DNA of 64,000 nt from Carcharhinus amblyrhynchos (taxonomy: Eukaryota). Shown one piece after another: positions 9,270 to 63,592 of this stretch. Every line of letters starts with the position of its first letter. Positions within the stretch are counted from its first letter, which is position 1. A program made the translations under genes and the position numbers. The notes below the pieces were generated by a model. The model saw only the letters and a list, made by a program, of their open reading frames with translations, was not told the origin of the DNA and searched no databases. The stretch lies in NCBI GenBank assembly GCA_965287045.1, contig OZ336881.1, positions 18,848,001-18,912,000 of the forward strand, written 5' to 3'.

Positions 9270-10445
9270 AAAAATAAAGGAAAATTCAAAAGGTGTTTTA
9301 TAAGTATATTAAGGCCAGGAGGATGACCAAGGATGAAGTAGGGCCCATTAGGGACCAATGTGGCAATGTGAGGAGCCAGAAGATGTAGGTGAGGTTTTAA
9401 ATGAGTACATTCTGTGTTCACTGTGGAGAAGGATGATGTAGATATAGAAATCAGGGAGGGCACTGCGATTTACTTGAAAAACTTAACATCGAAAGGGAGG
9501 AGATGTTAATAGTTTTAACAGGCCTAAATTCTCCAAGCCCAAATGAGATTTATCCCAGGTTGCTGTGGGAGACAAGGGATGAGATTACAGCAGCTCTGAC
9601 AATTTTCACATCTTCTCTGGCCATGGGAGAGGTGCCAGGGGATTGGAGGACAGTTAATGTGGTACCATTATTCAACTGAAGTAGGGAAAAACTAGGAAAG
9701 TACAGGCCAGCGAATTAACTTCAGCGGTGGGAAAATGATTGGAAAAAATTCTGAGGGACAGAATAGGAAGGGAAGGATTACTCAAGGATAGTCATCATGG
9801 CTTTGTCAAAGAGAGATCATTTTTAACAAACTTTTCAAGGAGGTCATTAGATGTGTAGATGAGGGTAGTGCAGTTGATGTAGTCTACATGGACTTCAGTA
9901 AGCCTTTTGACAAGGTCCCATATGGAAGGCTGATGAAGAAGCATCCAAGGGATCCAGGGAAATTTAGAAAACTTAGTGATAGGAGGCAGAGGGTAATGCC
10001 AAAGAAGCCCATATTCAGTGGTGTTCCGCAGGGATTGGTGCTGGATCTCTTGTTGTTTGTAGTGTATATTAATGATCTGAATACAGGAAGTAAGTTCATA
10101 GATGACACAAAAATTGGTGATGTAATAGATAACGAAGAGCAAAGTCTTAGCTTACCAGAAGTTAAGGGACAGGAGTTTATAGGAGATGTAAGAACATAAG
10201 AAGGAAAATCTTTTTCACCCAGAAGTTAGTGGGAATCTGGAACTCACTGCCTGAAAGGGTGGTAGAGGTGGGAACCTTCACAACATTAACAGGTATTTCA
10301 ATGAGCATTTAAAATACCATGGCGTACAAAGCTATGGGCCAAGTGCTGGAAAATGGGATTAGAACAGATAGGTGCTTGATTTCAAGCACAAACACAAGAG
10401 GCCTAAGAGTCTCTTTCTGTGGTGTAAAACTCTATGACTCTAACT
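9270..10445 (+). mobile_element. Degraded CR1 LINE
   Basis: MDFSKPFDKVPYGRL, GVPQG, KFIDDTKIG in ORF 9888-10199; tail ctctatgactct. Confidence 0.88.
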
Positions 10446-10452
10446 CTCTCGC

Positions 10453-10748
10453 CTCCAAATAGATTTTTTTTAAATCCAGTCCAATCAAGTCCAATTCAGA
10501 GTCTCAACAAGTTGAGACATTCTCGATCCAAGCTGACAAGACAGGGCTTTCATCTCCTGTCTTGGGCTTCATCTACATGATCCAAGCTGATTGGAACAGG
10601 CATTGCACCTTCTCCGAGGCTTGATCTCATTTGCATCTTAGCCAAAAGGCCGACATGCCGCTTATAAAAATTGCTTCAAATGAAGCCAAAATGTAACTAA
10701 TGACTTCAGCCAAGTGCAGCATGTCGATATTACACTTGATCTTAGCCA
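10453..10748 (-). repeat. Composite U2-snRNA-derived repeat (copy A)
   Basis: Minus strand TGGCTAAGATCAAGTGTAATATC (10748-10726), TCGGCCTTTTGGCTAAGAT (10653-10635), then the same gatcaagcc...gcaatgcctg...tcagcttggatc units as copy B. Confidence 0.78.
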
Positions 10749-10830
10749 TACTCTCTGACCTCTGAATAGATTATTGATTAACAAGGGGTGAAAGGTTATC
10801 GAGGGGATAATGGGAGTGTGGAGTTGAGGG

Positions 10831-23631: not shown

Positions 23632-23706
23632 ATGTTTTGTGAAAAAGCCATAGAGTTGATCCGGGAGCTGCAGCGAGCTGGGGACGGCCAGTTGCCCGCC
23701 TTTAAT
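23632..23706 (+). CDS. GINS1: GINS1/PSF1 exon 1 ([25 protein letters not shown])
   Basis: ATG at 23632, 75 nt, donor AAT|GTGAGT; recognisable PSF1 N-terminus. Confidence 0.97.
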
Positions 23707-23956
23707 GTGAGTAGCACAGTATTTTGCAGATAGCTTCTGCTCGGAGGCACTGTCTCTCTTGTGAGTATAGCTCAACCATAACAACAACAACGAAGGTCAA
23801 TGACCACATTAGATCGCATGCTTTTGATGAATAACAGAGTGATGTAAGGGTTGCAGGAATACATCCATGGACTGCTCAAGTGGTCAGAAAGGGGGTAATT
23901 TGAAATCCATCTGGAGAAGTTTGAAGTAATGCAATTTTGAGGGAGGGTGCAAACAA

Positions 23957-24470
23957 GGCCTTTTAGCTAAGATCAAGTGTTGCATTACTTTGCTGGCAGG
24001 CGAAAATCAATGATCAGGCAGTTGACGAGACTAGCCCATTGCTCTTGGAGTGTGCTCGTTTGCCAAGGCTAGGGTCGAGTAAACCCGAAGATAACCAATA
24101 AGGTTAAACCAAGTGCTTACCAAATGCAATTTTTCAAAGCCATCTCGGCCTTTTGGCTAAGATGAAGCATTAGATCAAGCCCAGGATGGTGTGCAATGTC
24201 TGATCTTGTCAGCTTGGATTTTATTTGTCCCTTACGTGGGGACCATGAATTGGATTTCATTGAATTGGGTTGTTTGATTGGAATAAAAGCGCTCTGAAAA
24301 AATCAAGCATTGGATTAAGCCCAAGATGGGATGCAATGCCTTATCTTGTCAGCTTGGATCTTGTTTGTTTCTCTCGTGGGACCATGAATTGAATTCAATT
24401 GGAATTTGATTTTGGTTTTTGGAGCCAGCAAGGAATTAATTTGGGTTTGCATGGTCCATTCTGAGCTTTG
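23957..24470 (+). repeat. Composite U2-snRNA-derived repeat (copy B)
   Basis: GGCCTTTTAGCTAAGATCAAGTGT (23957-23980), TCTCGGCCTTTTGGCTAAGAT (24143-24163), then two approx. 140-bp units resembling diverged U2 body. Confidence 0.78.
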
Positions 24471-24589
24471 GCTCTGTAACTTTAAGAATGGATTAAAAAA
24501 AAGGTAGGATACCATGAATCGTAGAGGAATGGAGGGATTTTGGAGTGCCTATCCATTGATCCTGAAGGTAGACGTAGATATTGTTCCTT

Positions 24590-25859: not shown

Positions 25860-28037
25860 GGATCCCTGTGTATGAATCTTTGGAAGGTGGATCTGCTGAG
25901 GAGCAGTGGAGGATCTTTAAGGAGATCTTTCTTGGTGCTCAGCAGAAATTTATTCCGATGGTTAAAAAGGACAGTAGGAAGAGAGGTAATAAGCCGTGGA
26001 TAACGAAGGAGGTGAAGGAAAGTGTTAAATTAAAAGCGGAGGAATTTAGAGTAGCTAAGAGCAGTGGGCGAGAAGAGGATTGGGAAAGGTTTAAATGTCA
26101 ACAAAGATTGACAAAGAAGTTGATAAAGGAGGGTAGGAGAAGCTATGAGGCTGGGCTAGCACTTAATATAAAAAAGGATAGCAAGAGTTTTTATAAATAT
26201 ATAAAAAGGAAGAGGCTGGCTAGGGTGAACGTTGATCCTTTAGAGAATGAGAAAGGGGAGCTAGTGGTAGGGGATGGGGATATGGCTAAGGTCTTGAATA
26301 ACTTTTTTGTTTCTGTCTTCACGGAAGAGGACGTGAATAATTTGCCGGGTGTTAGCGATGGAAAGGTGGTAGGAATGGAGGGTCTTAATGACATTACTGT
26401 TACTAGAGAGGTGGTGCTCGACAGACTGGAGGGGCTGATTGTGGACAAGTCCCCAGGACCGGATGGAATGCATCCGAGGGTTCTGAAAGAAATGGCGGAG
26501 GTGATAGTGGATGCCTTGGTGGTTATTTTCCAGACGTCGCTGGATTCCGGGGAAGTGCCGGAAGATTGGAAAACGGCTAATGTTACGCCGTTGTTTAAGA
26601 AGGGTGCCAGGCAAAAGGCGGGGAATTATAGGCCGGTTAGTTTAACGTCTGTGGTAGGTAAAATGTTAGAATCCGTCATTAAGGAGGAAATTGCGAGGCA
26701 TCTTGAAGGGAATTGCTTGATAGGGCGGACGCAACACGGTTTCATTAAAGGGAAGTCGTGTCTGACAAATTTACTGGAGTTCTATGAGGATGTGTCTAGG
26801 GCAGTGGATAGAGGAGAGCCGGTGGATGTGGTCTTTCTGGATTTTCAGAAGGCGTTTGACAAGGTACCTCACAAGAGGTTATTGCAGAAGGTCAGGGGAC
26901 ATGGAGTTGGGGGTAGGGTGTTAGCGTGGATAGAGGATTGGTTGTCAAATAGGAGGCAGAGAGTGGGGGTCAATGGGTGCTATTCGGATTGGCGGTTGGT
27001 GACTAGTGGGGTGCCCCAGGGGTCGGTGCTGGGGCCTCAGCTATTTACCATTTATATAGATGATCTGGAGGAGGGAACCGAGTGCAGGGTGTCGAAATTT
27101 GCTGATGACACCAAGACTGGGGGAAAGGCAAATTGTGCGGAGGGTGTGGAGAGTCTGCAGAAGGATCTAGATAGGCTGGGCGAATGGGCCAGGAAATGGC
27201 AAATGGAATTTAATGTTGGCAAGTGTGAGGTGGTCCACTTTGGTAGGAAGAATGGTAGGAAGGACTATTACTTACGTGGCGAAAAACTGCAGCAGGCGAC
27301 GGTGCAGAGGGACCTCGGGGTCCTTGTGCATGAGTCGCAAAAACCCAGCTTGCAGGTGCAGCAGGTGGTCAGGAAGGCGAATGGGATGCTGGCCTTCATA
27401 GCGAGGGGGATTGAATATAAAAGTAGGGAGGTCTTGCTGCAGCTGTATAGGGCATTGGTGAGGCCGCAGCTGGAGTACTGTGTGCAGTTTTGGGCGCCGC
27501 ACCTGCGCAAGGATATTTTGGCCCTGGAGGGAGTGCAGAGGAGGTTTACTAGGCTGATACCGGAGTTGAGGGGGTTGAGCTATGAGGAGAGGCTGAATAA
27601 ACTAGGCTTGTACTCGTTAGAGTTTAGAAGAATGAGTGGAGATCTCATTGAGACGTATAAGATGATGAATGGGATGGATAGGATAGAGGTGGAGAGACTC
27701 TTCCCGCTCAAAAAAGACAGTAGGACTAGGGGGCACAGCCTCAAGATAAAGGGGAGGCGGTTTAGAACGGAGTTGAGGAGGAACTTCTTCACTCAAAGGG
27801 TGGTGAATCTCTGGAATTCTCTGCCCGTTGAAGTGGTGGAGGCTGCCTCGCTAAATATTTTTAAGAAGCGGGTTGATGGGTTTTTGATAAGAGAGGGGAT
27901 TAAGGGTTATGGGGAGAGGGCGGGAAAGTGGAACTGAGCCACAACAGGTCAGCCATGATCTTATTGAATGGCGGGGCAGGCTCGAAGGGCTAGATGGCCT
28001 ACTCCTGCTCCTATTTCTTATGTTCTTATGTTTCTTA
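25860..28037 (+). mobile_element. CR1-clade LINE, 5'-truncated, open ORF2 (RT and C-terminus, 689 aa)
   Basis: KSPGPDG, NYRPVSLTS, DFQKAFDKVPH, GVPQGSVLGP, FADD, RGDLIE motifs; 3' UTR ending in (TTCTTATG)n. Confidence 0.96.
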
Positions 28038-29312: not shown

Positions 29313-31086
29313 ATAAGAACATAAGAAATAGGAGCAGGAGTAGGCCATCTAGCCCTTCGAGCCCGCCCCGCCATTCAATAAGATCATGGCTGATCTGTCG
29401 CGGCTCAGTTCCACCTTCCCGCCCTCTCCCCATAACCCTTAATCCCCTCTCTTATGAAAAACCCATCAACCCGCGTCTTAAAAATATTTAGCGAGGCAGC
29501 CTCCACCACTTCAACGGGCAGAGAATTCCAGAGATTCACCACCCTTTGAGTGAAGAAGTTCCTCCTCAACTCCGTTCTAAACCGCCCCCCCTTTATCTTG
29601 AGGCTGTGCCCCCTAGTCGTACTGTCTTTTTTGAGCGGGAAGAGTCTCTCCACCTCTATCCTATCCATCCCATTCATCATCTTATACGTCTCAATGAGAT
29701 CTCCCCTCATTCTTCTAAACTCTAACGAGTACAAGCCTAGTTTATTCAGCCTCTCCTCATAGCTCAACCCCCTCAACTCCGGTATCAGCCTAGTAAACCT
29801 CCTCTGCACTCCCTCCAAGGCCAAAATATCTTTGCGCAGGTGCGGTGCCCAAAACTGCACACGGTACTCCAGCTGCGGCCTCACCAATGCCCTATACAGC
29901 TGCAGCAAGACCTCCCTACTTTTATATTCAATCCCCCTCGCTATGAAGGCCAGCATCCCATTCGCCTTCCTGACCACCTGCTGCACCTGCAAGCTGGGTA
30001 TTTGCGACTCATGCACAAGGACCCCGAGGTCCCTCTGCACCGCCGCCTGCTGCAGTTTTTCGCCCCGTAAGTAATAGTCCTTCCTACCGTTATTCCTACC
30101 AAAGTGGACCACCTCACATTTGCCAACATTAACTTCCATTTGCCATTTCCTGGCCCATTCGCCCAGCCTATCTAGATCCTTCTGCAGACTCTCCACACCC
30201 TCCGCACAATTTGCCTTTCCCCCAATCTTGGTGTCATCAGCAAATTTCGACACCCTACACTCGGTTCCCTCCTCCAGATCATCTATATAAATGGTAAAAA
30301 GCTGAGGCCCCAGCACCGACCCCTGGGGCACTCCACTAGTCACCATCCGCCAATCTGAATAGCACCCGTTGACCCCCACTCTCTGCCTCCTATTTGACAA
30401 CCAATCCTTTATCCACGCTAACACCCTACCCCCAACTCCATGTCCCTCGACCTTCTGCAATAACCTCTTGTGAGGTACTTTGTCAAACGTCTTCTGAAAA
30501 TCTAGAAAGACCACATCCACCGGCTCTCCTCTATCCACCGCCCTAGACGCATCCTCATAGAACTCCAGTAAATTTGTCAGACACGACCTCCCTTTAATGA
30601 AACCGTGCTGCGTCTGCTCTATCAAGCAATTCCCTTCAAGATGCCTCACAATTTCCTCCTTAATGACAGATTCTAACATTTTACCTACCACAGACATTAA
30701 ACTAACCGGCCTATAATTCCCCGCCTTTTGCCTGGCACCCTTAAACAACGGCGTAACATTAGCCGTTTTCCAATCTTCCGGCACTTCCCCGGAATCCAGC
30801 GACGTCTGGAAAATAACCACCAAGGCATCCACTATCACCTCCGCCATTTCTTTCAGAACCCTCGGATGCATTCCATCCGGTCCTGGGGACTTGTCCACAA
30901 TCAGCCCCTCCAGTCTGTCGAGCACCGCCTCTCTAGTAACAGTAATGTCATTAAGACCCTCCAGTCCTACCACCTTTCCATCGCTAACACCCGGCAAATT
31001 ATTCACATCCTCCTCCGTGAAGACAGAAACAAAAAAGTTATTCAATACCTTAGCCATATCCCCATCCCCTACCACTAGGTCCCCTT
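29313..31086 (-). mobile_element. CR1-clade LINE, 5'-truncated, open ORF2 (556 aa), same subfamily, inverted
   Basis: ORF 29405-31075 nearly identical to the 25868-27937 protein; same 3' tail (cataagaa on plus). Confidence 0.96.
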
Positions 31087-62510: not shown

Positions 62511-62646
62511 TTACATAAATCTACTTAAAAGTTGTTACTGCAATGATATTATTATGATGTGGGTATGCCGGCGTTGGACTGGCGTAAACACAGTAAAAAG
62601 TCTGACAACACCAGGTTTTAGTCCAACCTATTTATTTGATAATATA

Positions 62647-62686
62647 CTCGCAAGCTTTCGAGGGGTTACCCTCTTCGTCAGGTGAA
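62647..62686 (-). ncRNA. Minimal hammerhead ribozyme motif, sense to NINL pre-mRNA
   Basis: Exact reverse complement of the 63416-63455 motif. Confidence 0.75.
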
Positions 62687-63415
62687 TGGAGAGTTCTGGC
62701 CTCAGACAGAGCATATAAAGCACAGACAGTTTAGAGATTACTGATTAAAATGCGAATCCTTACACCTAACCTGCTGTTCAAGACCTGAAGTGGCTGATAA
62801 TGTGAGTGGTAGGAGCACTGATCACAGTTTAAAGAGATGTGTATTGTCTCCAGACAGTACAGTAAGTGAGGTTTTGCAAACCCAGGCAAGTCACGGGGGT
62901 TACAGATAGTGCGACATGAACCCAAGATCCCTGTTGAGACCGTCCTCATGTGTGCGGAACTTGGCTATCAGTCTCTGCTCAGCGACTCTGCGCTGTCGTG
63001 TGTTGTGAAGGCCGCCTTGGAGAATGCTTACCCGAAGGTCAGAGGCTGAATGCCCGTGACCACTGAAGTGTTCGCCAACAGGAAGGGAACAGTCTTGCCT
63101 GGTGACTGTCGAGCGATGTTCATTCATCCGTTGTCGTAGCGTCTGCATGGTCTCCCCAATGTACCATGCTTCGGGACATCCTTTCTTGCAACGTATCAGG
63201 TAGATACGTGACTTGCCTGGGTTTGCAAAACCTCACTTACTGTACTGTCTGGAGACAATACACATCTCTTTAAACTGTGATCAGTGCTCCTACCACTCAC
63301 ATTATCAGCCACTTCAGGTCTTGAACAGCAGGTTAGGTGTAAGGATTCGCATTTTAATCAGTAATCTCTAAACTGTCTGTGCTTTATATGCTCTGTCTGA
63401 GGCCAGAACTCTCCA

Positions 63416-63455
63416 TTCACCTGACGAAGAGGGTAACCCCTCGAAAGCTTGCGAG
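63416..63455 (+). ncRNA. Minimal type I hammerhead ribozyme motif (pLTR copy)
   Basis: CAC CTGACGA A GAGGG taac CCCTC GAAA GCTT GCG: intact core boxes and 5-bp stem II. Confidence 0.75.
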
Positions 63456-63592
63456 TATATTATCAAATAAATAGGTTGGACTAAAACCTGGTGTTGTCAG
63501 ACTTTTTACTATGATATTATTATCCAGAAAGTAAGGTTAACGTCACTGCTCAGTACTATAGCTGTACTCCAATTAACAAGCAAATACAATAC

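What the first reader, a model, noticed from the sequence alone, without database searches (positions are those of the whole stretch)
23957..24470. Composite, multimeric U2-snRNA-derived interspersed element (possible shark SINEU-like family)
Seen: a U2 5' head (U2 nt about 11-34), an unrelated approx. 160-nt spacer ending gcaattttt..aag, a second U2 head, then two tandem units tracking the U2 body (tctgatcttgtcagctt vs UCUGUUCUUAUCAGUUU; gtccc...gggac vs GUCCUC...GAGGAC; tttttggagc vs the Sm-site region; ttgcatggtccattc vs UUGCUCCGUCCACUC). The same architecture recurs at 10453-10748, so it was amplified as a unit rather than being a one-off U2 pseudogene. Known: U1/U2-derived SINEU is described from crocodilians, and Keno (Tx1) and Utopia retroelements target U2 near nt 37-40. 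Inference: a non-autonomous U2-derived retroelement in sharks, which I cannot recall being described. The branch-site-pairing GUAGUA is altered (GTTGCA / GCAATG) while the U6-pairing 5' head is well preserved.
Basis: partly seen in the sequence, partly recalled or inferred. Interest (0 to 1): 0.8.

Follow-up and report, generated by a model that had tools for sequence, protein, structure and literature searches.

The report
Jumping element built from spliceosomal RNAs
This is a copy of a family of short jumping DNA elements pieced together from the U1, U2 and U4 splicing RNAs, spread in thousands of copies through what appears to be a shark or ray genome and recently active, of a kind so far described only in crocodilians.

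Summary
Real, and larger than described. The element (23957-24502, intron 1 of GINS1) belongs to an interspersed retroposon family made of spliceosomal snRNA pieces. The 'unrelated spacer' is U1 (93% to the genome's own U1) plus a U4 5' stem-loop fragment (28/31 nt). There are at least three subfamilies: A (U1+U4+U2), B (U2 monomer) and C (U2 1-40 + decayed A). The window element is a sporadic U2 head + A + B in tandem, not an amplified unit; the copy at 10453-10748 is subfamily C, minus strand. C is very young: 30 best copies are 97.8-100% to consensus, poly(A)-tailed, with target-site duplications in 13 of 30, and 351 exact junction matches. The genome holds an intact Keno-like Tx1 retrotransposon that inserts in U2 genes at nt 37/38, once in U4, and also disperses with similar duplications: the likely mobiliser. 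Two C copies carry U2-gene upstream DNA, suggesting a source inside a U2 gene, but no promoter-bearing master was found. Host is probably an elasmobranch. Nine literature searches found SINEU only in crocodilians and none with U4; Repbase/Dfam could not be checked.

The parts
23632..23706 (+). Host context: GINS1 (PSF1) exon 1; the element lies 250 bp into intron 1, sense orientation
   Evidence: phmmer to PDB PSF1 chains, E 1.4e-10, 24 of 25 residues identical; GT donor at 23707
23957..23985 (+). Extra U2 head (U2 nt 11 to 34 firm, possibly to ~39), a sporadic 5' addition
   Evidence: z 10.3; in 2 of 37 A copies
23986..24055 (+). Subfamily A: U1-derived segment (U1 5' end, internal 11-nt deletion, stem-loop II region; 15 nt lost in this copy)
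   Evidence: consensus z 31.5; 78 of 84 letters
24056..24076 (+). Subfamily A: second, shorter U1 piece (U1 34-60)
   Evidence: consensus z 6.7, 0 of 2000 shuffles; position
24083..24134 (+). Subfamily A: U4-derived segment (U4 17-47, 5' stem-loop), then a short stretch like the U4 Sm-site region (24126-24134, weak)
   Evidence: consensus 28 of 31 letters, z 6.9-8.7; Sm-like part z 2.7, 47 of 2000; not seen by cmscan
24143..24289 (+). Subfamily A: U2 head (7-31) and diverged U2 body, ending in a polyadenylation signal at 24282-24287
24299..24502 (+). 5'-truncated subfamily B copy (U2 monomer, U2 ~24-160) with A-tail, sitting at the A-rich end of the A copy
   Evidence: groups with 12 B copies at 100/99 support
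10466..10748 (-). Older copy of subfamily C (U2 head + decayed U4-region spacer + U2 head + duplicated U2 body + A-tail)
   Evidence: 88.8% to C consensus; groups with C at 100/100
10444..10772 (-). Outer limits of a decayed ~23-bp target-site duplication (10750-10772 and 10444-10465) around the C copy
   Evidence: 18 of 22 letters; score reached by 0 of 2000 random window pieces; picked by eye, not called by the stricter script

Best explanation
A family of non-autonomous retroposons (SINEU-like). An old U2 retrocopy, reworked by small insertions and given a polyadenylation signal, became a template; pieces of U4, U1 and U2 were added at its 5' end in steps. The RNA is polyadenylated and copied into new sites by target-primed reverse transcription, most likely by the resident Keno-like Tx1 element, which recognises a poly(A) tail rather than a LINE-derived tail. 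Having no promoter of its own, the source copy is most likely transcribed by Pol II from an snRNA gene it sits in: for subfamily C a U2 gene entered at the Keno site, which supplies both the new head (nt 1-40) and the promoter. SHOWN: snRNA origin, one family, dispersal, poly(A), duplications, youth of C, an intact Keno-like element. INFERRED: Keno-like partner (about 0.7), U2-promoter source (about 0.5). The window copy is a decayed A+B tandem, probably inert.
For: Dispersal: 41, 40, 40 and 47 matches from 40 scored candidates each, of 4772, 1615, 1148 and 2713 unvalidated candidates; 351 exact matches of a 26-nt C junction, reversed control 0; 2 copies in 200 kb of arbitrary regions. One family: A, B and C share 21 changed and 12 inserted columns against U2. 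TPRT: duplications of 9-20 bp in 13 of 30 C and 8-25 bp in 10 of 22 dispersed Keno-like copies, 0 of 150 mismatched pairs each; both start with A and follow C/T in 12 of 13 and 10 of 10, as at the U2 site. Partner: intact 1190-aa APE-RT-zf ORF2 and CCHC ORF1, in U2 genes, dispersed copies up to 99% alike; one dispersed copy begins at U2 nt 1 with a 25-bp duplication (L173), so U2-initiated transcripts do retrotranspose here. Young C directly behind its poly(A) in L160, L172, L250. C's head ends at U2 nt 40, the 5' junction of the Keno-like fragment in the U2 array (L180). L235 and L236 carry 37 and ~20 nt of U2 upstream DNA (z 5.3 and 5.4), which mature U2 RNA lacks.
Against: No master found: of 12 places with the full U2 promoter, 10 are intact U2 genes and 2 hold Keno-like fragments, none the SINE; the exact pattern SINE tail + rest of U2 gave 0; L235's U2 upstream match stops at -37 (z -0.3 beyond). 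No tail shared with the Keno-like element (z 0.9, -0.7, -0.3). Only 150 of 1155 zf-RVT candidates were scored, so other L1/Tx1 partners are not excluded. The C/T bias is partly built in (an A at -1 is absorbed into the tail). Duplications are rare in old copies (A 2 of 45, B 1 of 15). Keno 5' junctions in U2 vary (26, 40, 51-57), so the match at 40 is one of several. Transcription and empty sites untested. Identities come from best hits and from consensuses built on the same copies.
Confidence: 0.72

Rival explanations
1. Same family, but heads were added at the RNA level by template switching onto abundant snRNAs during reverse transcription, and source copies are read from unrelated host promoters (the model proposed for crocodilian SINEU).
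For: Proposed in PMC4494074. Sporadic extra U2 or U1 heads with varied junctions occur here (window, L006, L101, L188, L236); 3'-truncated U1 and U4 retrocopies exist; no promoter-bearing master.
Against: U2 upstream DNA on two C copies on different contigs; a fixed junction in 351 copies; a Keno-like insertion inside a U4 gene shows that DNA-level entry into snRNA genes happens. The two routes are not exclusive.
Confidence: 0.4
2. The family is mobilised by another L1/Tx1-clade element and the likeness to the Keno-like element is incidental.
For: No shared tail; most zf-RVT candidates unexamined; A-rich tails may attract any such element.
Against: All 46 zf-RVT loci examined match the one Keno-like family, which is intact and as young as C; similar duplication starts.
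Confidence: 0.25
3. A heap of independent snRNA pseudogenes or chimeras, not a replicating family.
For: Ordinary U1, U2 and U4 pseudogenes exist in the genome.
Against: Shared derived columns, 30 of 30 U1-U4 heads running into the same U2 body, 7 of 30 C copies identical to consensus.
Confidence: 0.02
4. A functional variant snRNA or a splicing-regulatory RNA of the GINS1 intron.
For: It keeps recognisable U1, U4 stem-loop and U2 head motifs; the U4 piece folds like the native hairpin; it lies near an active-looking promoter.
Against: Below Rfam cut-offs; the window copy is 82-86% to consensus with the U1 5' end and branch-pairing motif mutated; no U2 promoter at this place (not among the matches).
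Confidence: 0.04

Closest known systems
SINEU-1, -2, -3 of crocodilians (Kojima 2015, PMC4494074)
   Same: U1/U2-derived parts, under 500 bp, poly(A) tail, repeated 5' additions, partial duplications, tandem insertions, internal oligo-T, no identified LINE tail, Tx1-type partner related to Keno. A resembles SINEU-2 (U1 then U2), B resembles SINEU-3 (reworked U2 monomer).
   Different: Non-crocodilian, probably elasmobranch host; a U4 segment; probably more copies (about 10,000 in total in that paper against a rough 3.5e3-1e5 here); partner still inserts in U2 genes and is intact; no single target transposon evident in the flanks seen; copies with U2-gene upstream DNA. Descent from crocodilian SINEU could not be tested.
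Keno (Tx1 clade, U2-targeting)
   Same: For the partner: APE endonuclease, U2 resuming at nt 38 (38/39 ambiguous with the tail), duplication U2 38-56.
   Different: Also widely dispersed outside U2, and once inside a U4 gene. The SINE itself holds no Keno sequence.
Utopia (U2-targeting, restriction-like endonuclease; PMC4640811)
   Same: Same U2 site.
   Different: The element here has an APE domain, so it is not Utopia.
U6/L1 and other snRNA chimeric retrocopies (bioRxiv 2025.02.02.635956)
   Same: snRNA joined 5' of another template.
   Different: Those are one-off chimeras; here junctions are fixed and amplified.

Membership tests
SINEU | 5' region from U1 or U2 snRNA | tested here: met
   U1 78 of 84, U2 heads 24 of 25, 26 of 27, 40 of 40 letters
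SINEU | Short (<500 bp) with 3' poly(A) | tested here: met
   341, 220, 315 nt; tails
SINEU | Shared structure among copies, not independent chimeras | tested here: met
SINEU | Recurrent 5' addition and partial duplication | tested here: met
   subfamilies A, B, C; 55-nt duplication in 19 of 29 A copies
SINEU | Mobilised by a Tx1-clade element | tested here: inconclusive
   circumstantial; no shared tail
SINEU | Pol II, not Pol III, transcription | not testable with these tools
   T4-T6 runs inside argue against Pol III; no RNA data obtained
SINEU-1/2/3 (the crocodilian families) | Sequence descent and Mariner-N4_AMi target | not testable with these tools
   no Repbase or Dfam sequences available
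SINEU-1/2/3 (the crocodilian families) | Restricted to crocodilians | tested here: not met
   window CR1 is 62-68% identical to named shark and ray proteins, 43-55% to bird and turtle ones; no crocodilian among the 120 listed
Keno (partner) | APE endonuclease, two ORFs | tested here: met
Keno (partner) | Insertion at the U2 37/38 site | tested here: met
   L139, L157, L159, L168-L171, L180, L234
Keno (partner) | Phylogenetic placement with named Keno elements | not tested
   nearest named proteins are unclassified amphibian and fish RTs, at most 55%
Utopia (partner) | Restriction-like endonuclease | tested here: not met
   APE found instead
Classical SINE | 3' tail taken from the partner LINE | tested here: not met
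   against the Keno-like element only
U2 snRNA gene (RF00004) | Score over 46 bits with upstream promoter | tested here: not met
   19.8 and 28.5 bits

The most novel reading that the evidence does not exclude
The Keno-like machinery is drawn to Pol II snRNA genes at a fixed distance from their start (U2 nt 37/38; U4 nt 38/39 in L249) and repeatedly drops this SINE into them, so that each new subfamily gains a new snRNA head and that gene's promoter: a still-active, promoter-hopping SINE assembled from U4, U1 and U2 genes in turn.
Probability: 0.25. Interest if true: 0.82.

Novelty: new variant of a known kind. Interest (0 to 1): 0.63.

Why it matters
SINEU has been described from crocodilians only, and how a promoterless snRNA-headed SINE is transcribed is stated as open in PMC4494074 and as undemonstrated in PMC5786205. 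A second, probably independent case with near-identical young copies and an intact candidate partner makes that question testable. It adds U4 as a source of SINE parts, offers insertion markers for elasmobranch phylogeny and populations, and warns that thousands of U1/U2/U4 'pseudogene' annotations in such genomes may be this family. The chance that it already sits unpublished in Repbase or Dfam is perhaps 0.3 (my estimate).

Tried and rejected
Whole-window Rfam scan: no U2; cmscan of a good A copy found neither U1 nor U4 at E<=10, so those rest on alignment to the genome's own genes. 'Amplified as a unit' rejected. LINE-derived tail from the Keno-like element rejected. U1 or U4 in B: none (z<0); U1 or U4 directly in C's spacer: none (z 0.0, 0.6), though that spacer is homologous to A's U4 region (z 17.9). 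Master in a U2 gene: not found; the 407-bp U2-variant arrays were only sampled. No duplication found around the window's A+B element. Subfamily order: the 110-column tree resolves B and C but not the root. One search used the U2 part of A by mistake; its copies were still used. Laying reads gave no result, so empty sites and expression remain open. Seven of 24 run rows with shares under 0.5 were not used. Earlier scan findings: none. The second density figure (5 in 430 kb, 1.1e4-7.9e4) includes flanks of known copies and is biased upward.

Full report
Observation. The U2 likeness is real when tested against the genome's own U2 gene (L031): heads and bodies score z 5.5-10.3 against 1000 shuffles. 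Rfam sees little: nothing in the whole window, a head-only U2 hit and a weak U1 hit (E 0.12) in a narrow scan. That U1 hit, and a U4 motif I recognised from memory, were then tested with the genome's own genes. In the consensus of 13 copies U1 2-96 aligns at z 31.5, a second U1 piece (34-60) at z 6.7 and U4 17-47 at z 6.9-8.7, each 0 of 2000 shuffles; a U4 Sm-site-like stretch is weak (47 of 2000). cmscan of one good copy did not recover U1 or U4. The element lies in intron 1 of GINS1. The host is probably an elasmobranch: the window's CR1 protein is 62-68% identical to named shark and ray proteins and 43-55% to bird and turtle ones; the genome has 2.92 Gb.

Family. Four DNA searches each returned their full 40 scored candidates as matches across many contigs. 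Three subfamilies emerge: A (341 nt; U1, U1 piece, U4, U2 head and body), with a 55-nt internal duplication in 19 of 29 copies; B (220 nt, reworked U2 5-160); and C (315 nt; U2 1-40, a spacer homologous to A's U4 region, a second head, duplicated body). All share 21 changed and 12 inserted columns against U2. U2 bodies are about 70% identical to U2 while heads are 90-100%, which fits later 5' additions (inference). A tree places the window's last unit in B and its second copy in C but does not fix the order of subfamilies. The window element is not an amplified unit: head + A in 2 of 37, A + B in 3 of 51, junctions differing. Copy number: 351 exact C junctions; 2 copies in 20 arbitrary 10-kb regions of C1-C7, i.e. 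3.5e3-1.1e5 genome-wide.

Age and mechanism. The 30 best C copies are 97.8-100% identical to their consensus (7 identical), start at U2 nt 1-9, end in a polyadenylation signal and poly(A), and 13 have 9-20-bp duplications against 0 of 150 mismatched pairs; best A and B copies are about 75-92% and 86-95%, with duplications in 2 of 45 and 1 of 15. These are best hits, not a census. Poly(A) plus such duplications are the marks of L1/Tx1-type target-primed reverse transcription (established knowledge). A zf-RVT search (150 of 1155 candidates scored) revealed an intact element with CCHC ORF1 and APE-RT ORF2, inserted in U2 genes with U2 resuming at nt 38, the site given for Keno and Utopia in PMC4640811. 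It is also dispersed, with duplications in 10 of 22 copies; L173 starts at U2 nt 1. It shares no tail with the SINE. Young C copies sit right behind its poly(A) in three loci and behind other C tails, which also explains the window's A+B tandem (inference).

Transcription. C's head ends at U2 nt 40, as does one Keno-like 5' junction (L180), and two older C copies carry 37 and ~20 nt of U2 upstream DNA. This points to a source inside a U2 gene. Against it, none of 12 full-promoter places holds the SINE, the tail-plus-U2 pattern found nothing, and L235's upstream match stops at -37, short of where PMC4494074 places the proximal element (about -60). One Keno-like fragment lies inside a U4 gene, U4 1-55 before and 39-141 after; it is a single case but shows a route by which U4 sequence could be gained.

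Known and new. I read the main text of PMC4494074 (parts 1-4 of 5; references part and supplements not seen; the supplements hold alignments that bear on descent): SINEU only in crocodilians, U1/U2 only, transcription an open question. Passages only: PMC4640811, PMC5786205, PMC5499810 (no snRNA SINE in its elephant shark study), PMC5381603, PMC7245038, PMC3706591, bioRxiv 2025.02.02.635956. Nine searches (listings of at most 30 papers each) showed no shark SINEU and no U4-bearing SINE; subscription journals, Repbase and Dfam were not searchable. It works like SINEU and meets its structural criteria; membership by descent is untested, and independent origin is more likely (inference from host and structure). 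Verdict: new variant of a known kind, interest 0.63.

Noticed in passing
L249:3141-3747 (G000:C3 U4 cluster): Keno-like 3' fragment with poly(A) inside a U4 gene, U4 39-55 duplicated; the cut is one base off the distance used in U2. Another U4 piece begins at nt 40 (L249:1469) beside CR1-like sequence.
   Followed up: partly
G000:C98 and C334 (L041-L045, L168-L171): 407-bp tandem array of a variant U2 (about 88% to the main U2) carrying many intact Keno-like copies.
   Followed up: partly
L067, L068, L249; L235, L238, L239, L245: C-type copies are frequent near snRNA genes: three within the U4 cluster and at least four on the U2-array contig C45.
   Followed up: no
L146, L158, L177: C copies head-to-head within about 115-320 bp of the 5'-truncated end of Keno-like copies; unexplained.
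   Followed up: partly
L005, L014, L022: B copies whose A-tail is followed by a T-run and a short inverted copy of their own 3' end; seen by eye.
   Followed up: no
L235: The U2-flank-bearing C copy is bracketed by a diverged duplication of about 90 bp or more of a local repeat.
   Followed up: partly
window 26253-28029 and 29313-31086: Two CR1 copies, 97% identical, in inverted orientation with long open frames (735 and 559 codons) around a simple-repeat spacer.
   Followed up: no
window 62589-62895 and 63207-63513: 307-bp inverted repeat, 99.7% identical.
   Followed up: no
window 24282 and 24492: The element puts two sense polyadenylation-like signals into GINS1 intron 1; any effect untested.
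   Followed up: no
L053, L056, L058, L072, L076, L077: 3'-truncated U1 (to nt 132-134) and U4 (to nt 67-80) retrocopies.
   Followed up: no
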